45,204 nt of DNA from Escherichia phage vB_EcoS_011D5, in the sequence record NC_073085.1; one strand, 5' to 3'. The stretch's first letter is position 1. Each line of letters begins with the position of its first letter. The notes under the pieces are model-generated. The model saw only the letters and a program-made list of their open reading frames with translations. It had not been told where the DNA came from and did not search any database. Of the stretch, positions 13,499 to 40,625 are shown one piece after another. Made by a program: the position numbers and the translations under genes.

Positions 13499-13536
13499 TA
13501 GTCCCAGTGAGATAAAACTTACTGGGACTTTTTTTA
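13499..13536 (+). terminator. Hairpin plus T-run abutting the start of the lysis cassette
   Basis: AGTCCCAGT...ACTGGGACT followed by TTTTTTT directly before the ATG at 13536. Confidence 0.55.
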
Positions 13537-13826
13537 TGGATAAGCTAAACGAGTGGCTATTCGCCCTGGCATGTCTGGCGGGTGGCTTCGTAGGCGCACG
13601 CATTCATGGCGAGGCTACGAAGGGGCCGCTAAACTTCGTTTTGTATGTCGTAGTTGGCTTCCTGTGTGCCATATTTGGCGCACCGGCTATTGCCGAGTGG
13701 GCTGGTTTGTCGGGGGAGCGCACTGTCGCCGGTTTGGGCTTCGTGACCGCAATTTTCTGGATGCCAATCGCCGACCGGATCAGGGAGACTATTGCGTCGT
13801 TCCGACTTCCGGGGGGTGCAAAATGA
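13536..13826 (+). CDS. Holin-like membrane protein (2-3 TM segments)
   Basis: Hydrophobic segments LFALACLAGGFVGA, FVLYVVVGFLCAIFGAPAI, GLGFVTAIFWMPI; immediately upstream of endolysin. Confidence 0.6.
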   Translation: MDKLNEWLFALACLAGGFVGARIHGEATKGPLNFVLYVVVGFLCAIFGAPAIAEWAGLSGERTVAGLGFVTAIFWMPIADRIRETIASFRLPGGAK

Positions 13827-14068
13827 TTATCTCCGTCCTGTTGTTTGTTATCATCGGGGCTTCGTCCCTGTTTAACGTGTATGCGCCGTCCGTCCAGGAT
13901 GGCATTTTCGGTCGGGTGCTGTATCTGTTAACGGCAATGGTCTGTATTATCGGACTGTTGCAAACAGGAGACGTATCTGATACCACCTGGACCGCGTTAA
14001 TATGGCTGTTTGCATTGCGCACACTGCGTAATGCTGTTTTGAATGGGGTAAAACATGCGATTCAGTGA
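13823..14068 (+). CDS. Second holin/antiholin-like membrane protein
   Basis: MIISVLLFVIIGASSLF...VLYLLTAMVCIIGLL...ALIWLFAL; overlaps neighbours. Confidence 0.55.
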   Translation: MIISVLLFVIIGASSLFNVYAPSVQDGIFGRVLYLLTAMVCIIGLLQTGDVSDTTWTALIWLFALRTLRNAVLNGVKHAIQ

Positions 14069-14546
14069 CAACGGTCTAAGATTTACGGCAGCATGGGAGG
14101 CTTTCAGCCCGGTGCCGTATTTCGCGACCAAGAAAGAGCAGGCCCGCGGCCTGTACACCTGGGGTTATGGTCATACCGGCACTAATCCGCCTCGAAGCAT
14201 TACCCGAGAAGAAGCGCTGGCACTGCTCAAGCGCGATGTGGCGTATGCCGAGGATTGGGTGAACAAATACGCTCATAAGAGCATTAACCAGGCGCAATTT
14301 GACGCGCTGGTGGACCTGGTAATCAATGCCGGTCCGGGTCCGATCGTACCGGATGACGTCGCGAATGATTTCGATGACGCTGTGCGGTTGGGCGACTGGG
14401 CGAAGGTCCGTGCTACGCTGCCGCTGTTCCGCAAGCAAGGCGGGGAAGTGCTTAAGGGTCTGGTACGCCGTGCAATCGGCAGACAGGCGTTGTTTGATGG
14501 TAAGCAGTGGGACGTTGCCGAGCGAATCGGTCGTAACGCAGCATAA
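14055..14546 (+). CDS. Endolysin, GH24/T4-lysozyme-like
   Basis: Catalytic-region pattern AAWEAF...YTWGYGHTG; 163 aa; follows holin-like genes. Confidence 0.8.
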   Translation: MRFSDNGLRFTAAWEAFSPVPYFATKKEQARGLYTWGYGHTGTNPPRSITREEALALLKRDVAYAEDWVNKYAHKSINQAQFDALVDLVINAGPGPIVPDDVANDFDDAVRLGDWAKVRATLPLFRKQGGEVLKGLVRRAIGRQALFDGKQWDVAERIGRNAA

Positions 14547-31436: not shown

Positions 31437-31443
31437 TAAAATG

Positions 31444-31473
31444 GCCCTCACAACCATCGTGGGGGTTTTTTTT
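31444..31473 (+). terminator. Terminator-like hairpin with T8 run after the tape measure gene
   Basis: CCCTCAC...GTGGGGG followed by TTTTTTTT. Confidence 0.4.
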
Positions 31474-33601: not shown

Positions 33602-34209
33602 CAACGTTTAAATTGTACGGCGTCTTGGGGCGTCGATTCGGTAAAGTGCATAAGCTGGACTGCTTCACTCCGGGCGAGGGTATCACCGGCCTGTGTGTGA
33701 AGTTACCCGGCTTACAGGACTTTCTAATGTCGGCCCACCTGGACAATATGATGTTCAAAGTGCGCAAGGGCAACCACACAATGACCGGTTATGATGAGCT
33801 TGGAGAGTTCCACGGCAACCGCGTAGTTACCATCGCTCCGGTTATGACTGGCGCAAAAAGAGGATTGGGCCAATTGCTGGCGGGTGTCGCGATCGTAGTG
33901 GCGTCGTTCTATACGGGCGGACTTGCTACTGCCGCTTTCGGGGCTTCGGCGGCAACCGCTGCCGCTATCGGTACGGCTACATTTTCGTTCGGCATGTCAC
34001 TTGCGCTGGGCGGTGCTATGCAATTGCTGTCCCCACAGCCGAAAGGATTGCAGACACGGCAGGACGTGGATAACAAAGCGTCGTATGCGTTCGGCGGGCC
34101 GGTAAACACGACCGCGCAAGGTACGGCACTTGGTGTATTATGGGGTGAGCGTGAGATCGGCGGCGCTATTATTTCAGCCGGAATCGTAACCGAGGATTTG
34201 AACGAATGA
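33592..34209 (+). CDS. Tail assembly protein I-like
   Basis: Gly/Ala-rich hydrophobic C-terminal half; between K-like and J-like genes. Confidence 0.6.
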   Translation: MAMTTFKLYGVLGRRFGKVHKLDCFTPGEGITGLCVKLPGLQDFLMSAHLDNMMFKVRKGNHTMTGYDELGEFHGNRVVTIAPVMTGAKRGLGQLLAGVAIVVASFYTGGLATAAFGASAATAAAIGTATFSFGMSLALGGAMQLLSPQPKGLQTRQDVDNKASYAFGGPVNTTAQGTALGVLWGEREIGGAIISAGIVTEDLNE

Positions 34210-37200
34210 CGATTGTCTATGACGTCACAGGCCATAAAGGCGGCGGTGGCAAACAGCACACCCCACAGGAGACACCCGATAGCCTGCATTCGCTGGCTAA
34301 AATCCGCATCTTGCTCGCGCTGGGAGAAGGTGAGTTCGAAGGTATTCCAGACCCTAACGAATTACGGCGGCGCGTATATCTGGACGGAACACCGATCCAG
34401 AATGCAGACCTGTCTGAAAACTTCCCTGGGGCGCGTGTGGAGTTCCGCCCCGGAACACAGCACCAGGATGTGATCCACGGATTTTCAGCGGTGGAAAGTG
34501 AGCAATCTGTCGGTGTAAAACTGGAAAACGGTACGCCGTGGGTGCGCCAGATTAACGATACCAGTCTGGACGCCGTGCGCATTCGTATCGGTATTCCGGC
34601 CCTGTACACTAACGAAGATAATGGCGACCTGGTGGGTGGGCGCATCGACTATAAGTTCGTTGTGTATACGGATAACGCCGACCCGCGTGAGTTTACCTTC
34701 GCTGCCGTTGGTAAAACAATGTCTCTATACGAGCGCGATCACCGCATCGAGCTACCGCCGAACGTTAACACCGGCTGGCGCGTGGAGGTGCACCGCATAA
34801 CGGCGAACTCCACATCGGCAAAAGTGGTTAACGATATCCAGGTGCAATCTATTACTGAGATTATCGACGCCCGTCTTCGCTACCCGCTAACCGCGCTGTT
34901 GTTCGTGGAGTTCGACGCTAAAGCGTTCCAGAACATCCCGCGCGTGTCCATCAAGTGCAAAGGCCGCAAAGTTCTAATACCGAACAACTATGACCCGATT
35001 AATCATACCTATTCGGGGGACTGGGACGGCACGTTTAAACGCGCATGGACGGATAACCCTGCGTGGCACTGGTACGATATTTGTATTACGGAACGCTTCG
35101 GCCTCGGTCGCCGGATCAAACCGCAAATGCTGAACCGGTACGCGCTCTACCAGATTGCGCAGCGCTGCGATCAACTGGTCAGCGACGGCAACGGTGGTCG
35201 AGAAATCCGCTTTAAGAATGATATGTACATTCAGTCACAGACGGATGCCTGGACCGTGCTTAAGGATTTGGCTGCCATCTTCGCCGGAATGACCTGGTGG
35301 GGTAACCAGATGTTGAATATCGTCAGTGACCAACCGGTAGCCGCGGTGTCACACACTATCACCAACGCATCTGTTATTGATGGGCGATTCGACTACGCAT
35401 CTGGAAGCCAGAAAACGCGGTATTCCACTTTCGCGGTAGCCTACGGCAACCCGAAAAACCACTATGATGATGCCATCGCAACGGGCCAACGTGTCGAACT
35501 GGTACGCCGCCATAAGATTAACCGTCTTGATATCACGGCGATCGGCTGTACGCGCGAGTCAGAAGCGCAACGCCGGGGGCACTGGGCGCTAATATCCAAC
35601 CAGCTTGACCAGCAGGTCAGCTTCAAGGTTGGCATGGAAGGTCTATTCTTTATTCCGGGTAGCGTAGTCGCGATCGCAGATACTAATATTTCTGGCGGAT
35701 TCGAGACTCGCGGCGGTCGCCTGTTGTCAGACCCTGGCACGCGTACCGTGCTTAACACAGACAGCGAAATCACATTCCGCCCTGGTGATAAGTTCCTGGT
35801 ACGCACCGATAGCGGAAATGTGGAGACTCGCGAGATCGCCAGCGTCAACGGCAACAAGGTCACTCTAAAAACCGCACTGGATGCCGACCCGATTCCAGAC
35901 CAACCGTTTTGCGTTGATGGCGATGATATCCAGTTGCAGAAATTCCGCATCACCGATCTGGAATATGACGACTCTACCAGCACTTTCTCGGTGCGCGGGA
36001 TTGAATACAACGATAGCAAGTATGATGCCGTTGATAATGGCGCTCGCCTTGATCCTGGTATCTTCACGCAAGTGCCTGATGGTGTAATGAAGGGGCCGGA
36101 ATCCGTGACCATCACCACGTCGCAGATTTCATCGCAAGGACAGCTAATCACCAACGTGGATATTGTTTTCCCGCCGGTGAAAGATGCCGTGGTGTATGAA
36201 ATCCAGTGGAGGCGTACTAGCCTGCAGAATATGGCGATCCAGTGGGGTAACGACTGGGTGAATATCCCACGCACGGCGTCGAATGGGGCACACATCCCTA
36301 ACGTGTTCTCCGGTAACTATCAGGCACGCGTCCGCGCAATTGGCATGGGCGAGATATCATCCCCGTGGGTGTCTTCCGCGATCACGCCGGTGGAAGGTCG
36401 CCTCGGCGGGCTTAACGCACCAATCATCACCAGCGCGATTTCGGGTCTGCATCAAATTCTATGGAAGTGGAACCACAACAACGCCGCTACGGATATCTCA
36501 TACACCGAGCTTGAAGTGCGCAAGACGGGTGAGGCAGAATGGAAATTCTTAACAAACGTCCCATACCCTGGCGCGGAGTATGCGCAAACGTCGCTGGAGT
36601 TCGGAATTTACCAGCAGTTGCGCGCCCGTGTAGCGGATAAAATCGGCAACCTGTCGGACTGGTCGGCCCCGTTTGAAGGGCAGGTGAGCGACAAAGTTGA
36701 CGAGTACATGAAGGGGCTTGATGACGAGTTCTTGACTTCCGAGGATGGTAAACACTTCCAGGAAGCAATCGACACCATTCCTCAAGGCATTTATGAGTCT
36801 ATGCTAACGGACGCACAGCAATTGATTAACGCCCGCTCCGAGTATCAAGGGATTTATGCGGAAATCAAGGTGGCGTATAACGTTGCCACGGACGCCCACA
36901 AGGCAGTAGCGCAACTGGAAACGTTGATCGGCACACGACTTGATGATGCGGAGGCGTCAATCCACACGTTGCAGACAGCGCAAAGCACGCACGAACAAGC
37001 GTTCGCCCAGTACCAACAAACTGTCGCCGCTAAGTTTGGGGAACAGGAAGCCGCCATCCAGCAGGTACAAACGGCAACGGCAGACGTAGCTGGCGCACTG
37101 GCGGAGTACAAGACCCAGGTCGCGGCACAGTTCGGTCAGCAGTCTGCCGCTATCGAGCAGAAGATGACGTCTTCGTTTAACCATGCTGGTGGCAGCGCCA

Positions 37201-37652
37201 CATATAGCCTTAAGGCTGGCGTGACGTATAACGGGGCTTACTACGATGCCGGTATGCAGCTTTCAGTTGTTGCGGAAGGTGGCGCGGTTAAATCCCGCAT
37301 CGCGTTCAAGGCGGACCAGTTCTACATCATGCACCCATCTAATGGGTCGCTTTCGTCCGCGTTTATCGTTGACGGCGGTCAGGTGTACATTGACACCGCA
37401 CGCATCAAGAACGCGTCTATCAACTTCGCGCAGATCACGGACACGCTGCAGTCGAATAACTGGAATCCAGGCAACAGTGGCTGGCGTATCGCGAAGGATG
37501 GCGGGGCGGAGTTCAACAACGTAACGGTACGAGGCAACTTGTTCGCTACTACTGGTAACTTCGGATTCTCTGGAGGGTCGGTACAGATCGACGCCACCGG
37601 CATTAACGTGCCATTGCCTGGCGGGGGTAGGGTGAAAGTGGGGACGTGGTAA
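34206..37652 (+). CDS. Central tail fibre / host specificity protein (gpJ-like)
   Basis: 1148 aa after I-like gene; canonical lambda-like order M-L-K-I-J. Confidence 0.8.
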   Translation: MTIVYDVTGHKGGGGKQHTPQETPDSLHSLAKIRILLALGEGEFEGIPDPNELRRRVYLDGTPIQNADLSENFPGARVEFRPGTQHQDVIHGFSAVESEQSVGVKLENGTPWVRQINDTSLDAVRIRIGIPALYTNEDNGDLVGGRIDYKFVVYTDNADPREFTFAAVGKTMSLYERDHRIELPPNVNTGWRVEVHRITANSTSAKVVNDIQVQSITEIIDARLRYPLTALLFVEFDAKAFQNIPRVSIKCKGRKVLIPNNYDPINHTYSGDWDGTFKRAWTDNPAWHWYDICITERFGLGRRIKPQMLNRYALYQIAQRCDQLVSDGNGGREIRFKNDMYIQSQTDAWTVLKDLAAIFAGMTWWGNQMLNIVSDQPVAAVSHTITNASVIDGRFDYASGSQKTRYSTFAVAYGNPKNHYDDAIATGQRVELVRRHKINRLDITAIGCTRESEAQRRGHWALISNQLDQQVSFKVGMEGLFFIPGSVVAIADTNISGGFETRGGRLLSDPGTRTVLNTDSEITFRPGDKFLVRTDSGNVETREIASVNGNKVTLKTALDADPIPDQPFCVDGDDIQLQKFRITDLEYDDSTSTFSVRGIEYNDSKYDAVDNGARLDPGIFTQVPDGVMKGPESVTITTSQISSQGQLITNVDIVFPPVKDAVVYEIQWRRTSLQNMAIQWGNDWVNIPRTASNGAHIPNVFSGNYQARVRAIGMGEISSPWVSSAITPVEGRLGGLNAPIITSAISGLHQILWKWNHNNAATDISYTELEVRKTGEAEWKFLTNVPYPGAEYAQTSLEFGIYQQLRARVADKIGNLSDWSAPFEGQVSDKVDEYMKGLDDEFLTSEDGKHFQEAIDTIPQGIYESMLTDAQQLINARSEYQGIYAEIKVAYNVATDAHKAVAQLETLIGTRLDDAEASIHTLQTAQSTHEQAFAQYQQTVAAKFGEQEAAIQQVQTATADVAGALAEYKTQVAAQFGQQSAAIEQKMTSSFNHAGGSATYSLKAGVTYNGAYYDAGMQLSVVAEGGAVKSRIAFKADQFYIMHPSNGSLSSAFIVDGGQVYIDTARIKNASINFAQITDTLQSNNWNPGNSGWRIAKDGGAEFNNVTVRGNLFATTGNFGFSGGSVQIDATGINVPLPGGGRVKVGTW

Positions 37653-37657
37653 AGGAG

Positions 37658-37682
37658 AAGGGGCCGGATGGCCCCTTTTTAA
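37658..37682 (+). terminator. Intrinsic terminator between convergent genes
   Basis: GGGGCC-ggat-GGCCCC followed by TTTTT. Confidence 0.7.
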
Positions 37683-38644
37683 TAGATGTTAGGAATTACG
37701 AGTAACGGGGTGGGTACTGCAATGTTTTTACCCGGCATTTGGAATTGCTGCCGTGAATAGTTGCCGATTACCCGGTTTTTGGCGATGCGCACATTACCGC
37801 CTGCCATTCGAATCCCGTTCATTCGAACGTGATTGTAGCCGCCGTTGTTCTCAATGAGCGCGCCGGTATACGAAAGCTGGACCAGGCTATTGCCTATGTA
37901 CTGATCGCCGCCGCCGATATAGATAAGGCGGTCATAAACAAATGGCTTATTCACTGTTGAGAACGTGACCTGACCCTGGTTGTTTGTCATGGTGATGCCG
38001 TTTCCGGGGGTGGGTGGCGTATTGTTGAATATAACCAGGTCCATTTCAACGGCAGCGCCTACGTCGTCAATCCCACCATAGGACGCATTACGGACGATAA
38101 TACTTCCGCCATCGAAGCCGACCGACACGTTTCCGTCGTCCCAGCGCGCGAATGGGACACCGCCTACAGGTAACGGCATACTTCCGTTCACCCACACGCG
38201 CTGCGCATATTGGCAGGTCATTAGCCTGGATACATTTGATATGGCGGTAAAGTCCGTCGAGTTCGCCACCAGTAACCCTGCGTTGCGCGAACCCACCGGC
38301 AACACTTCCATGATCACCCCGCCCCATGTTGGAAGCCCGCTATATGCGCCATATGCGTCTTCACCTCGCAAGGTGATTCCGCCATCCCCGTTACGTTGTA
38401 CTGAGGTGACGTAGAAAGGGTCGGGCAAGACCAGTGTCTGGTCGAATACTTCTATAACTTCAACGGGGCTTGTGAGCGCGACGACCAGATCTGACCCTGG
38501 CGTTAGCTGAGTGTTAATAGTAAGCGTCTTATCAGACTGGCAGCGCTGATAGAATGAGGTACAGAATGACGGAGCGCGAAGTCCGGCTGTTATCTCCATC
38601 ACCGGCCTTCCGTCGTTGTAGTCTATAAGTATTCCAGCGCCCAT
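37679..38644 (-). CDS. Hypothetical Gly/Asn-rich protein (possible beta-solenoid), co-transcribed with the lipoprotein
   Basis: Repetitive G/N/V-rich motifs (GGGDQYIGN, NNGGYNH, GGNVRIAKN); start coupled to lipoprotein stop. Confidence 0.55.
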   Translation of the reverse strand: MGAGILIDYNDGRPVMEITAGLRAPSFCTSFYQRCQSDKTLTINTQLTPGSDLVVALTSPVEVIEVFDQTLVLPDPFYVTSVQRNGDGGITLRGEDAYGAYSGLPTWGGVIMEVLPVGSRNAGLLVANSTDFTAISNVSRLMTCQYAQRVWVNGSMPLPVGGVPFARWDDGNVSVGFDGGSIIVRNASYGGIDDVGAAVEMDLVIFNNTPPTPGNGITMTNNQGQVTFSTVNKPFVYDRLIYIGGGDQYIGNSLVQLSYTGALIENNGGYNHVRMNGIRMAGGNVRIAKNRVIGNYSRQQFQMPGKNIAVPTPLLVIPNIY

Positions 38645-38646
38645 AA

Positions 38647-38868
38647 TTACCACTCCCGAGATTTAACTGATACCGTACCAGAGAAGTTGCCGTCACTATC
38701 CGCGGACAGGCCGGTGAAGCGCATGTCGACCTCCCCGGCAGGGACTTTTTGCCCGTCAACGTAGCGCAACATGCAGCTTCCGTAAGCTACCGTAATGCAA
38801 TCGCCGTTGTTACGCTCTACCGCGCAGCCGGACAGAAGAACCGCACAAATCACAATTAATGTTTTCAT
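38647..38868 (-). CDS. Small lipoprotein (73 aa precursor), Llp/Cor-like superinfection-exclusion candidate
   Basis: Signal peptide MKTLIVICAVLLSGC with lipobox LSGC; RBS AGGGGA; next to receptor-binding genes. Confidence 0.6.
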   Translation of the reverse strand: MKTLIVICAVLLSGCAVERNNGDCITVAYGSCMLRYVDGQKVPAGEVDMRFTGLSADSDGNFSGTVSVKSREW

Positions 38869-38948
38869 GGTATCATCCCCTATATTTGGTTGAGTTTTAG
38901 TATTGCACCGCTCAACCAAGAATGCAACCAATTTATGAGGATTCAGCT

Positions 38949-40589
38949 ATGGCAGCGGGTACACTATCCGTAACGAATAACAGCAAGGCGGTTGTCGGGG
39001 TAGGCACGACGTTTACCACGTTTACCGCTGGCGACTTCTTAACTCTGGTGGTGGGGCAAGTGCCTTACACTGTTGCTATCGCGTCCGTCGAAAGCGACAC
39101 CGCGATTACGCTTGTGCTTCCGTTCGACGGCCCCACGGCAACCGGCCTCGCGTGGGATGGCGTTAAGCGCGATACCATGTCGCTGGCAACGATGGGCGTA
39201 ACAGTACAGGCACAGAAAGCGTTGCGCTTGATGATCGCTGACGAAAACAACTGGCGTGCAATCTTCGGAGACGAAGAAGAAGTCACGGTAACGCTGCCGA
39301 ACGGGCAAGTTATGCAAGGTATGTCCTGGGGCTACCTGTCACAATTGATGAATCAGATCGACCCCGTTGAAATGCGCAACCTGCAACAACAAGCCGCGGC
39401 ATCTGAAGCAGCAGCGCAAGGATTTCGCAATGAGGCCGAAGGCTTCAAGACTGAGACGGCGGGGATCCGCGACGCCACCAACCAGATTAAGGCGGATACG
39501 CAGGCTATCCACGACGCCACCAATACCATCAAGACGCAGACGGCCCAGATTAAGACTGACACGCAGGCCATCAAGGGCCAGACGGACCAGATTAAGACAG
39601 ACACCGGCGTTATTCGCGATGAGGCCAATGCCGCGAAGGCTGAAGCGCAAGCCGCCAGCACTGCCGCGCTTGGATATCGGAACGAGGCCGAACAATTCAA
39701 GAATGAGATTGACCCGTCTAACTTTCTGGCAAAGGGTGGCAACCTGGCTGGGTTAACTGACTTGCCCGAGTCGCGGGATAACTTGGGTTTAGGAGCGTTG
39801 GCGACTAAAGATTCGGCGGCGCTAAACTCCACAGATACGACCGGTATTCTGCCCTTAGATAAGGGCGGTTTAGGCGCTGGTACCATCCCTGGCGCACGGG
39901 AGACGATGCATATTTATGGTCATGACGCTACGTTCGGGACCATAAATAATATCCTCACATACTTCAACAATATTGCGGGTAACGGCGGACTCTTCTCGTT
40001 TCGAGATGGTGCCGTTGACGCCACGAACACCTACAAATTCGGCTCAGCAATACTGTTTCGCACAGCCGACACCTACGGACTGTTAAGTGTTGACCACAAC
40101 AGCGGAAACGTTAGAGCATCCGGTGGTACAGTTTCTGGTGGGATCGCGGCCACAGCATACATCAACAACCTGTGGGGTACGCGTAACACCACCGTAGACG
40201 GTAACGGGTTTATTAAAACCGCGTCGCCCATCGTCAAGATCTTCAGTGACGGTGCCGCGGAGACTAACGACGAGGCCGAAGGCGTTACGGTGACTCGCAT
40301 ATCTGCGGGGGTGTATGTTGTGGAGGGGTGTCTAGGCCTCAACTCAGACCCATCCTGGGGCGGGCCTGACGGCGGGATTGAGATTCCGACGGACGTGAAC
40401 AAGCAGCCTCGTTTATGGGTTGATTATAAAGTGCGCGCTGACGGCTCTGTGGAGGTACGCACATACCACCGAACACACCCACACGCTCCAGCATTCGCAA
40501 GAAATGAGATAGAAGGTGTGGCGGAAGGGGACCCGGTTGATATACCGCGTGGCACGTTCATATCTGTTCGGGTTAATATGCCTGAGTAA
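38949..40589 (+). CDS. Tail fibre protein with 11-residue periodic helical repeats
   Basis: RBS GAGGA; repeats IKADTQAIHDA / TNTIKTQTAQ / IKTDTQAIKGQ / TDQIKTDTGV (33 nt periodicity ~39460-39620). Confidence 0.7.
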   Translation: MAAGTLSVTNNSKAVVGVGTTFTTFTAGDFLTLVVGQVPYTVAIASVESDTAITLVLPFDGPTATGLAWDGVKRDTMSLATMGVTVQAQKALRLMIADENNWRAIFGDEEEVTVTLPNGQVMQGMSWGYLSQLMNQIDPVEMRNLQQQAAASEAAAQGFRNEAEGFKTETAGIRDATNQIKADTQAIHDATNTIKTQTAQIKTDTQAIKGQTDQIKTDTGVIRDEANAAKAEAQAASTAALGYRNEAEQFKNEIDPSNFLAKGGNLAGLTDLPESRDNLGLGALATKDSAALNSTDTTGILPLDKGGLGAGTIPGARETMHIYGHDATFGTINNILTYFNNIAGNGGLFSFRDGAVDATNTYKFGSAILFRTADTYGLLSVDHNSGNVRASGGTVSGGIAATAYINNLWGTRNTTVDGNGFIKTASPIVKIFSDGAAETNDEAEGVTVTRISAGVYVVEGCLGLNSDPSWGGPDGGIEIPTDVNKQPRLWVDYKVRADGSVEVRTYHRTHPHAPAFARNEIEGVAEGDPVDIPRGTFISVRVNMPE

Positions 40590-40599
40590 AGCATAATGC

Positions 40600-40625
40600 G
40601 AAGGGGCCATTCGGCCCCTTTTTAA
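40600..40625 (+). terminator. Intrinsic terminator after the tail fibre gene
   Basis: GGGGCC-attc-GGCCCC followed by TTTTT. Confidence 0.7.

What the first reader, a model, noticed from the sequence alone, without database searches (positions are those of the whole stretch)
37679..38900. Reverse-oriented lipoprotein plus Gly/Asn-rich protein cassette next to the receptor-binding genes
A 73 aa lipoprotein precursor (MKTLIVICAVLLSGC, lipobox LSGC) is translationally coupled to a 321 aa Gly/Asn-rich protein. The pair is transcribed divergently from the tail fibre gene and convergently with the J-like gene. Small lipoproteins encoded beside receptor-binding genes, such as T5 Llp and the Cor proteins of T1-like phages, block the phage's own outer-membrane receptor, so this is a good superinfection-exclusion candidate. 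The 321 aa partner lacks a signal peptide and its role is unclear.
Basis: partly seen in the sequence, partly recalled or inferred. Interest (0 to 1): 0.55.

Follow-up and report, generated by a model that had tools for sequence, protein, structure and literature searches.

The report
Phage receptor binder plus exclusion lipoprotein
The two genes are an already characterised phage module: the 321-residue protein is the tail-tip protein that most likely binds the bacterial LPS exporter LptD, and the small lipoprotein most likely blocks that receptor from inside infected cells.

Summary
A 73-aa lipoprotein precursor (38647-38868, minus strand; lipobox LSGC) sits 2 nt upstream of a 321-aa ORF (37679-38644). 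The pair is divergent from the lateral tail fibre gene and convergent with the J-like gene.

The window is Escherichia phage vB_EcoS_L-h 1M, a Dhillonvirus.

The partner called "unclear" is the phage's terminal receptor-binding protein (RBP). It is 88% identical over its full length to the RBP of phage Oekolampad, solved by cryo-EM bound to the LptDE lipopolysaccharide translocon (PDB 9RQI; E 2.9e-187).

The lipoprotein is 96% identical to Oekolampad's named superinfection-exclusion (SE) lipoprotein. It belongs to the same Pfam family (PF24052) as Rtp45, whose complex with LptDE is also solved (9RPS; E 5.8e-9). The lipid-anchor cysteine and the disulfide pair are conserved.

So the exclusion idea is right in kind. 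However, the lipoprotein is not a Cor or Llp homologue, the predicted target is LptD, and the cassette is the receptor-binding locus itself rather than a neighbour of it. This locus type was defined in 2021 and explained structurally in 2025.

Verdict: already known, low interest. The function in this phage is inferred from homology only.

One side lead: Gordonclarkvirinae podophages carry homologues of both genes at separate loci.

The parts
38647..38868 (-). Superinfection-exclusion lipoprotein gene. The precursor is 73 aa: signal peptide residues 1-14, lipobox LSGC, lipidated Cys15, Ala at +2. The mature protein is 59 aa, about 6.4 kDa, pI 4.7.
   Evidence: ORF and sequence. Pfam PF24052 Phage_lipoprotein E 6.5e-22. 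96% identical to Oekolampad bas18_0026 and 41% to Rtp45 in a MAFFT alignment; Cys24/Cys32 align with the Rtp45 Cys30-Cys38 disulfide, and the VPAGEVD.R motif is invariant. PDB 9RPS_D E 5.8e-9.
37679..38644 (-). Terminal receptor-binding protein gene (321 aa, 34.4 kDa, DUF6453). It is predicted to bind the LptDE translocon. The first ~14 residues (MGAGILIDYNDGRP) are largely conserved in Rtp44 and are the probable adaptor to the J tip.
   Evidence: Pfam DUF6453 E 5.5e-120. PDB 9RPT/9RPW/9RQI chain C E 2.9e-187 over residues 1-321. 88% identical to RBP-Oeko and 35% to Rtp44. Gln299, named in the paper as an LptD Ser350 contact, is conserved. No TM segment.
38645..38657 (-). Junction between the two genes: GGGAG Shine-Dalgarno (38653-38657) inside the 3' end of the lipoprotein gene, its TAA stop (38647-38649), then a 2-nt spacer (38645-38646) before the RBP ATG.
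   Evidence: Oekolampad has the same junction with one base changed. Rtp has an overlapping TAATG.
38869..38948 (.). 80-bp divergent control region between the lipoprotein gene and the lateral tail fibre gene. It contains a 9-bp perfect inverted repeat TTGGTTGAG-N16-CTCAACCAA (38886-38919) and the AGGGGA Shine-Dalgarno of the lipoprotein gene (38876-38881). Read by eye, a weak extended -10-like element TGcAATACT lies 17 nt after TTGCAT on the minus strand.
   Evidence: The inverted repeat is unique in the window, with 0 of 100 shuffles matching. Its RNA fold is only z = -2.0. The region is 75/80 identical in Oekolampad. The consensus scan found no strong minus-strand promoter here, so the promoter assignment is inference.
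37653..37678 (.). Bidirectional intrinsic terminator between the convergent J-like and RBP genes: hairpin GGGGCC-GGAT-GGCCCC (37660-37675) with T-rich tracts on both strands.
   Evidence: Folds at -19.3 kcal/mol (z = -4.0) on the plus strand and -15.7 kcal/mol (z = -4.5) on the minus strand. The motif occurs only twice in the window, both times at a convergent gene junction.
34206..37652 (+). J-like central tail fibre/hub protein (1148 aa). Context: the structure to whose distal end the RBP is thought to attach non-covalently.
   Evidence: Pfam FNIII-A_GpJ, Phage-tail_3 and Phage_Tail_Tip; PHROG 'central tail fiber J'. 95% identical to Oekolampad J overall, but only 77.9% in residues 1081-1148. 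The attachment model is from Maffei 2021.
38949..40589 (+). Lateral tail fibre gene. Context: it is divergent from the cassette, and the BASEL papers propose it as the O-antigen/primary-receptor fibre.
   Evidence: Pfam Phage_tail_C_2 E 1.3e-59 and PHROG tail fibre families. Similarity to Oekolampad stops at 39698. GAGGA lies 7 nt upstream of the 38949 ATG, while no Shine-Dalgarno precedes 38922.

Best explanation
The cassette is the LptD-type receptor-binding locus of a small siphophage (Dhillonvirus). It is a two-gene operon on the minus strand, running from the 80-bp divergent control region to a bidirectional terminator shared with the J gene.

The second gene encodes a 34-kDa monomeric receptor-binding protein. 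It is made in the cytoplasm and docks through its conserved N-terminus onto the distal end of the J-like central fibre. [quoted passage not shown]

The first gene encodes a 59-residue mature lipoprotein. [quoted passage not shown] There it is predicted to bind LptD from the periplasmic side, between LptE and LptM. It would push a beta-hairpin up the barrel lumen and displace extracellular loop 4. LptD could then no longer adopt the conformation that the RBP needs.

The effect would be to stop superinfection and, above all, to stop progeny virions from being wasted on the debris of lysed cells.

Shown here: gene structure, family membership, and 88% and 96% identity to the Oekolampad proteins. 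Shown by others: RBP-Oeko bound to LptDE, Rtp45 bound to LptDE, and lptD-mutant resistance to Oekolampad. Inferred: that the same holds for this phage, the docking of the RBP on J, and co-expression of the two genes.
For: Identity of the window: Dhillonvirus phage vB_EcoS_L-h 1M.

RBP:
- PDB 9RQI/9RPT/9RPW chain C, E 2.9e-187, aligned 1-321 to 1-321; 87.9% amino-acid identity.
- DUF6453 for this protein, RBP-Oeko and Rtp44 alike.
- Gln299, an LptD contact, is conserved.
- 96.6% identical to the RBP of Bas84, which the BASEL authors predict to target LptD.

Lipoprotein:
- PF24052 for this protein, SE-Oeko and Rtp45.
- PDB 9RPS_D, E 5.8e-9.
- 96% identical to SE-Oeko; the anchor Cys, the disulfide pair and the VPAGEVD motif are conserved.

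Synteny: the same order, lipoprotein then RBP and convergent with J, in Oekolampad and Rtp.

Literature:
- Maffei 2021 matched alleles of this locus to receptors 'without exception' and showed that lptD mutants resist Oekolampad.
- Dunbar 2025 gives both cryo-EM structures and the mechanism.
- Black et al. 2025 confirmed LptD dependence for a 41%-identical RBP.

Operon signals: Shine-Dalgarno sites, the 2-nt gap and the terminator.
Against: Nothing was tested in this phage; every functional step rests on homology.

SE-Oeko, the 96%-identical protein, could not be expressed by Dunbar et al. Direct binding data therefore exist only for Rtp45, which is 35-41% identical. I could not read the primary paper on Rtp45's exclusion phenotype (Wietzorrek 2006).

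The RBP differs from RBP-Oeko at 39 positions spread along the whole chain. I could not map these onto the interface because the contact tables are images.

No consensus sigma-70 promoter was found upstream of the lipoprotein gene, so the timing of expression is unknown.

In 76 of 80 sampled IMG/VR loci, which look like prophages, the DUF6453 gene follows J on the same strand with no PF24052 lipoprotein nearby. The pairing is therefore not obligatory for the RBP family.
Confidence: 0.88

Rival explanations
1. Same module, different receptor. The 12% divergence of the RBP and the diverged J tip have retargeted this phage to another outer-membrane protein, or to an LptD variant of different hosts, and the lipoprotein blocks that target instead.
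For: There are 39 amino-acid differences from RBP-Oeko. The RBP gene is the most diverged gene of the region at 78.9% nucleotide identity, against 87-89% for its neighbours, and the last 68 residues of J are only 77.9% identical. Single LptD point mutations abolish binding, so small changes at this interface matter.
Against: Rtp44 is only 33-35% identical to RBP-Oeko, yet Rtp is assigned to LptD through its 96%-identical relative AugustePiccard, whose resistant mutants map to lptD. OzMSK, whose RBP is 41% identical to this one, was shown experimentally to depend on LptD. Maffei 2021 found that locus type predicts the receptor without exception. The SE lipoprotein is 96% conserved.
Confidence: 0.06
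2. The lipoprotein is a lysis protein, an outer-membrane spanin subunit, rather than an exclusion factor.
For: It is a small outer-membrane-sorted lipoprotein of typical o-spanin size.
Against: The holin and lysozyme genes lie at 13536-14546, about 24 kb away. No i-spanin partner is adjacent; the downstream gene is the RBP. It belongs to PF24052 together with Rtp45, which is solved bound to LptDE.
Confidence: 0.02
3. The 321-aa protein is a host-conversion 'membrane protein' (a moron), as PHROG 1265 and many RefSeq records label it, and not a virion protein.
For: PHROG 1265 carries the description 'membrane protein' in the category 'moron, auxiliary metabolic gene and host takeover'. Many records repeat that label.
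Against: It has no signal peptide and no hydrophobic segment; the maximum KD19 is 1.27. [quoted passage not shown] In temperate relatives the gene sits inside the tail operon, directly after J.
Confidence: 0.02

Closest known systems
Oekolampad (Bas18, Dhillonvirus) RBP-Oeko (bas18_0025; PDB 9RQI/9RPT/9RPW) and SE-Oeko (bas18_0026)
   Same: Same genus, same gene order and orientation, and the same 2-nt junction. Identities: RBP 88%, lipoprotein 96%, J 95%, control region 75/80.
   Different: There are 39 RBP substitutions, and the J C-terminal 68 residues are diverged (77.9%). The lateral fibre has a different distal half, with no similarity after 39698. No experiments exist for this phage.
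Rtp44/Rtp45 of phage Rtp (Drexlerviridae); Rtp45-LptDE-LptM complex, PDB 9RPS
   Same: Same two Pfam families and the same operon layout: lipoprotein first, coupled stop/start, convergent with the J homologue. The lipid-anchor Cys, the disulfide pair and the VPAGEVD hairpin motif are conserved.
   Different: Identity is only 35% (RBP) and 37-41% (lipoprotein). Rtp belongs to a different family of phages. Rtp45 lacks the 5-residue DSDGN insertion found here and has a longer signal peptide.
T5 pb5 / Llp and the T1/phi80 Cor lipoproteins (FhuA blockers)
   Same: The same logic applies: a dedicated tail-tip RBP plus a small periplasm-facing outer-membrane lipoprotein with an internal disulfide, which disables the phage's own receptor from inside.
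   Different: No detectable sequence homology. The target is FhuA, a TonB-dependent transporter, and blocking works by long-range allostery; Rtp45 instead displaces LptD loop 4 physically.
DUF6453 genes of temperate lambdoid phages, for example Salmonella phage SPN3UB gp38
   Same: Same RBP family at 54% identity, with the gene immediately downstream of J.
   Different: The gene is on the same strand as J, inside the tail operon. No PF24052 lipoprotein lies within 3 kb in 76 of 80 sampled loci. The receptor is unknown.

Membership tests
LptD-type 'bona fide RBP locus' of small siphophages (Maffei 2021) | Located directly downstream of the gpJ homologue | tested here: met
   The RBP stop at 37679 lies 26 nt from the J stop at 37652, in convergent orientation. 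The layout is the same in Oekolampad and Rtp.
LptD-type 'bona fide RBP locus' of small siphophages (Maffei 2021) | An RBP ORF of about 930-960 bp homologous to Rtp44, AugustePiccard and Oekolampad RBPs | tested here: met
   The ORF is 966 bp. DUF6453 E 5.5e-120; PDB 9RPT_C E 2.9e-187; 88% and 35% identity to RBP-Oeko and Rtp44.
LptD-type 'bona fide RBP locus' of small siphophages (Maffei 2021) | A cognate small lipoprotein gene adjacent to the RBP gene | tested here: met
   A PF24052 lipoprotein lies 2 nt upstream on the same strand.
LptD-type 'bona fide RBP locus' of small siphophages (Maffei 2021) | Infection depends on LptD: resistance maps to lptD loop mutations, and the RBP binds LptDE | not testable with these tools
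   This is known for Oekolampad. It requires plating and binding assays for this phage.
PF24052 / Rtp45-type superinfection-exclusion lipoproteins | Type II signal peptide with a lipobox and outer-membrane sorting (no Asp at +2) | tested here: met
   MK, then a 10-residue hydrophobic core, then L-S-G-C15 with Ala16, by rule-based reading. No dedicated predictor was available.
PF24052 / Rtp45-type superinfection-exclusion lipoproteins | Sequence membership above the curated threshold | tested here: met
   77.7 bits against a cut-off of 27. Rtp45 scores 128 bits and SE-Oeko 76.3 bits in the same family. PDB 9RPS_D E 5.8e-9.
PF24052 / Rtp45-type superinfection-exclusion lipoproteins | An intramolecular disulfide pair (Rtp45 Cys30-Cys38) and the hairpin motif | tested here: met
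   Cys24 and Cys32 align with Cys30 and Cys38. V42-P-A-G-E-V-D48 and R50 are identical to Rtp45. Actual disulfide formation was not tested.
PF24052 / Rtp45-type superinfection-exclusion lipoproteins | Binds periplasmic LptDE and prevents adsorption | not testable with these tools
   A structure exists for Rtp45 only; SE-Oeko could not be expressed.
Cor family (T1, phi80, N15, HK022) | Sequence homology to Cor beyond the signal peptide | tested here: not met
   PHROG 1119 (Cor) scores E 0.0074 over residues 2-29 only, which is the signal peptide. No Cor-type Pfam hit appears at E<=0.1.
T5 Llp | Sequence homology to Llp | tested here: inconclusive
   A phmmer search of all PDB chains at E<=10 returned 9RPS_D and three chance hits, none of them named Llp. 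I did not confirm that an Llp chain is in that copy of the PDB, and no Llp sequence was compared directly.
o-spanin (lysis) | Encoded in the lysis cassette, next to or inside an i-spanin gene | tested here: not met
   The holins and lysozyme are at 13536-14546. The cassette is about 24 kb away, among tail genes.

The most novel reading that the evidence does not exclude
The exclusion lipoprotein may be more than a receptor mask. In the Rtp45 structure its hairpin occupies the LptD barrel lumen and LptD is held in a closed form with loop 4 displaced. This family could therefore also shut down LPS export in the infected cell, making it a natural protein inhibitor of the essential LptDE machine.

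Two points are compatible with this. Dunbar et al. failed to express SE-Oeko, which is 96% identical to this protein, in E. coli. Their paper contains no test of LPS transport.

A related extension is that the same two families occur in Gordonclarkvirinae podophages, for which no protein receptor is known. The LptD-targeting and LptD-blocking pair may therefore be used well beyond siphophages.
Probability: 0.2. Interest if true: 0.6.

Novelty: already known. Interest (0 to 1): 0.15.

Why it matters
It matters mainly for annotation. GenBank labels the two genes of this phage 'hypothetical protein' and 'putative lipoprotein'. Pfam still calls the RBP family DUF6453, and PHROGs calls it a 'membrane protein' moron.

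The evidence here assigns both genes a function by homology. It predicts that this phage uses the essential, conserved LptD as its terminal receptor, which is relevant to host-range prediction, phage engineering and resistance forecasting.

It adds nothing new to biology beyond what Maffei 2021 and Dunbar 2025 established. The exception is the side lead on podophages and the untested question of whether the lipoprotein impairs LPS export.

Tried and rejected
An 88%-identical protein has an experimental structure. The predictor also accepts only window sequences or homologous-protein hits, so a useful alignment would have cost a very large database search for no gain.
- **Mapping the 39 RBP substitutions onto the LptD interface** failed. 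The contact tables of Dunbar 2025 (Figs S7 and S16) are held only as images. Only Gln299 could be checked.
- **Wietzorrek 2006**, the primary paper on Rtp45, is not held. The Rtp45 exclusion phenotype is therefore cited only through later papers.
- **NCBIfam** gave no family for either protein.
- **The consensus promoter scan** found no convincing minus-strand promoter upstream of the lipoprotein gene. It also missed the obvious terminator hairpin, which I confirmed by folding instead.
- **My first lipobox regular expression** on the IMG/VR loci produced false positives: internal starts within J, and later spurious downstream ORFs. I replaced it with an HMM search of all ORFs.
- **The o-spanin, Cor, Llp and 'membrane protein' readings** were considered and rejected; see the rival explanations and the membership test.
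- **The Citrobacter phage HCF1 hit** (76% identity over RBP residues 1-34) is only a 34-codon remnant next to a longer J gene in an unverified assembly. I did not pursue it.

Full report
**What is in the sequence**

The window is Escherichia phage vB_EcoS_L-h 1M (OM262540.1, 45,204 bp, genus Dhillonvirus). The record has the same length and the same gene coordinates as the window.

Two minus-strand ORFs occupy the reported interval.
- The first is 38647-38868, 73 aa, beginning MKTLIVICAVLLSGC.
- The second is 37679-38644, 321 aa from its ATG.

The first has a textbook type II signal peptide. It starts Met-Lys, continues with a ten-residue hydrophobic core, and ends with the lipobox L-S-G-C15. 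Ala at +2 predicts Lol sorting to the outer membrane.

The genes are joined as TAA-tt-ATG. A GGGAG Shine-Dalgarno lies inside the end of the first gene.

The pair is bounded upstream by an 80-bp region (38869-38948) shared with the divergent lateral tail fibre gene. Downstream it ends at a GGGGCC-GGAT-GGCCCC hairpin, which sits between the stop of the 321-aa gene and the stop of the convergent J-like gene. The hairpin folds at -19.3 and -15.7 kcal/mol on the two strands (z = -4.0 and -4.5) and has T-rich tracts on both sides. The same motif occurs at only one other place in the window, also a convergent gene junction, at 40603-40618.

The anatomy is that of a compact two-gene operon.

**What the two proteins are**

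The 321-aa protein matches Pfam DUF6453 at E 5.5e-120. A sequence search of the PDB gives a single hit, chain C of 9RPT/9RPW/9RQI, at E 2.9e-187 and aligned end to end. This chain is the receptor-binding protein of the Dhillonvirus Oekolampad (Bas18). Dunbar et al. [quoted passage not shown]

Identity is 87.9%. Gln299, which the paper names as a hydrogen-bond partner of LptD Ser350, is conserved.

The protein has no signal peptide and no transmembrane segment; the maximum 19-residue hydropathy is 1.27. The PHROG label 'membrane protein / moron' is therefore a mis-annotation.

The 73-aa protein matches Pfam PF24052 (Phage_lipoprotein) at E 6.5e-22. It hits PDB 9RPS chain D at E 5.8e-9. That chain is Rtp45, the exclusion lipoprotein of phage Rtp, solved bound to LptDE-LptM.

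The 73-aa protein is 96% identical (70 of 73 residues) to bas18_0026, which Dunbar et al. call SE-Oeko. It is 41% identical to Rtp45 in a MAFFT alignment. The anchor cysteine, the pair aligning with the Rtp45 Cys30-Cys38 disulfide (Cys24 and Cys32 here) and the VPAGEVD.R motif are all conserved.

Rtp45, SE-Oeko and this protein fall in one Pfam family. Rtp44, RBP-Oeko and the 321-aa protein fall in another.

Gene order and orientation are identical in Oekolampad and in Rtp. In Rtp the stop and start codons overlap as TAATG.

**How it most likely works**

Maffei et al. (PLoS Biol 2021, PMC8594841) showed that small siphophages carry dedicated receptor-binding proteins. These are thought to attach non-covalently to the distal end of the J-like protein. 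They are encoded directly downstream of gpJ together with cognate exclusion proteins. Allelic types of this locus predict the terminal receptor 'without exception'. Oekolampad and six other phages with this allele are blocked by small deletions in lptD.

Dunbar et al. added the structures.
- The RBP buries almost 1,700 square angstroms in LptD loops 3-5 and 11.
- Single LptD changes (D352Y, Y671N) abolish binding.
- Rtp45 sits at the periplasmic side between LptE and LptM and sends a hairpin up the barrel lumen.
- Rtp45 displaces loop 4 by up to 20 angstroms, so the RBP-competent conformation cannot form.

By homology, I conclude two things. The 321-aa protein is this phage's terminal RBP for LptD. 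The lipoprotein is its exclusion factor, protecting infected cells and above all progeny released among cell debris.

Several steps remain inferred for this phage: LptD dependence, docking of the RBP on J, the lipoprotein's binding, and co-transcription.

The best-conserved stretch shared with the 35%-identical Rtp44 is the N-terminus, MGAGILIDYNDGRP against MAQGIYIDLNDGRK. This fits the view of Black et al. 2025 (PMC13035648) that the base containing the N-terminus connects to the tail.

**Local evolution**

Against Oekolampad, the RBP gene is the most diverged gene of the region.

| Gene | Nucleotide identity | Amino-acid identity |
|---|---|---|
| RBP | 78.9% | 87.9% |
| SE lipoprotein | 86.9% | 95.9% |
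| J (whole) | 88.9% | 95.3% |

Within J the last 68 residues drop to 77.9% amino-acid identity, against 92-99% elsewhere. The J tip and the RBP thus diverge together while the lipoprotein stays conserved. This fits an outward-facing RBP under diversifying pressure and a lipoprotein that contacts conserved periplasmic surfaces. That interpretation is mine and was not tested.

**Rivals**

- *An o-spanin.* This is excluded by position: the lysis genes are at 13536-14546. Family membership also argues against it.
- *Cor membership.* Not met. The only Cor signal is a PHROG hit of E 0.0074 confined to the signal peptide.
- *Llp homology.* No Llp-named chain appeared in the PDB search at E<=10. I did not compare an Llp sequence directly, so this test is inconclusive. 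The resemblance to Llp and Cor is best treated as functional.
- *Retargeting to another receptor.* This cannot be excluded without experiments, but it is unlikely. RBPs only 33-41% identical to RBP-Oeko or to this protein are assigned to LptD or shown to depend on it.

**Wider distribution**

tblastn finds RBP homologues in 435 phage records and lipoprotein homologues in 336. In virulent small siphophages the two genes are adjacent.

A scan of IMG/VR returned 80 loci. Four are Dhillonvirus-like and carry the lipoprotein immediately upstream. In the other 76 (49-55% identity) the upstream gene, where one was detected (75 of the 76), is J on the same strand. Many of these contig names carry isolate-genome-style IMG identifiers, so I take them to be mostly prophages; this was not checked further. 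An HMM search of all ORFs found no PF24052 ORF within 3 kb in any of the 76. Salmonella phage SPN3UB is an annotated example, with the order J, DUF6453, tail fibre, integrase.

The reverse-oriented, lipoprotein-led operon is therefore the form seen in virulent phages. It is not a universal property of the RBP family.

**Verdict**

It is wrong about homology to Cor and Llp, and it missed that the partner is the receptor-binding protein itself.

The module is already described genetically (2021) and structurally (2025) in a sister phage at 88-96% identity. Its value here is correcting the annotation. Interest is low.

Two leads go beyond the literature I could search. The first is whether this lipoprotein family also blocks LPS export; the paper contains no such test, and SE-Oeko could not be expressed. 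The second is the presence of both families at separate loci in Gordonclarkvirinae podophages.

Noticed in passing
L005:3662-4696 and L006:2968-3267 (Escherichia phage KBNP1711, NC_023593.1 20728-21762 and 66062-66361): Gordonclarkvirinae podophages (KBNP1711; tblastn hits also in SU10, NJ01 and several of the BASEL isolates Bas88-94) carry homologues of both cassette proteins at separate loci.

A 344-aa DUF6453 protein (Pfam E 1.3e-23; PDB 9RPT_C E 2.4e-8) sits right after the gene that by position corresponds to the SU10 tail needle gene, and before the transglycosylase and ejection-protein genes. A 99-aa PF24052 lipoprotein (E 3.4e-34) sits among small genes on the far side of the genome.

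The BASEL paper credits these phages with only long and short tail fibres as receptor binders. The SU10 cryo-EM paper never mentions gp19. No paper I could search links these phages to LptD. They may use LptD at the outer-membrane step and exclude with an Rtp45-like lipoprotein.
   Followed up: partly
window 31437-31472, 37653-37678, 38869-38948, 40590-40621, plus scattered single bases: The copy of OM262540.1 held in the 'phages' collection differs from the window in each of the four longer intergenic stretches checked between 30000 and 45204, and at about a dozen single bases. Its replacement text looks like coding sequence; the 38869-38948 stretch appears to echo part of the tail fibre gene.

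The window's version carries proper terminators and ribosome-binding sites. It matches phage Psq-1 at 99% across 37600-39000, which includes two of these stretches. The database copy therefore looks altered and the window natural. This is why the self-hit scored only 98.4% over 91% of the query.
   Followed up: yes
L011-L086 (IMG/VR loci) and L087 (Salmonella phage SPN3UB 24866-25825): In prophage-type relatives (49-55% identical RBP) the DUF6453 gene follows J on the same strand, inside the tail operon. No PF24052 lipoprotein lies within 3 kb in 76 of 80 loci. How, or whether, these temperate phages block their receptor, and what that receptor is, remains open.
   Followed up: partly
window 38886-38919: A perfect 9-bp inverted repeat, TTGGTTGAG-N16-CTCAACCAA, lies in the 80-bp divergent region between the lipoprotein and lateral fibre genes. 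It is unique in the window and 8 of its 9 bp are kept in Oekolampad. It overlaps the only promoter-like elements I could read for the cassette, so it may be an operator or a 5'-UTR hairpin. The RNA fold is weak, z = -2.0.
   Followed up: partly
window 38922-38951: The mechanical ORF list starts the lateral tail fibre gene at ATG 38922. The GenBank start at 38949 is more likely: it has GAGGA 7 nt upstream, while 38922 has no Shine-Dalgarno and lies inside the inverted repeat region.
   Followed up: yes
window 39699-40592: Similarity to Oekolampad breaks off in the distal half of the lateral tail fibre gene and resumes at 40593. This fits the known swapping of the fibre tip that the BASEL papers propose as O-antigen-binding in Dhillonvirus.
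   Followed up: no
L088:4501-4602 (Citrobacter phage HCF1, MN545971.1 29341-29442): A 34-codon remnant, 76% identical to the RBP N-terminus, lies between a small ORF and a longer (1238-aa) J-like gene in an unverified assembly. It may be a scar left when the RBP locus was replaced by a J C-terminal extension, as described for TolC-targeting phages.
   Followed up: no
OR532805.1 (Klebsiella phage RCIP0011) 19707-20660 and 30262-30486: In this Klebsiella phage the RBP homologue (31% identity) and the lipoprotein homologue (45% identity) lie about 10 kb apart rather than adjacent.
   Followed up: no
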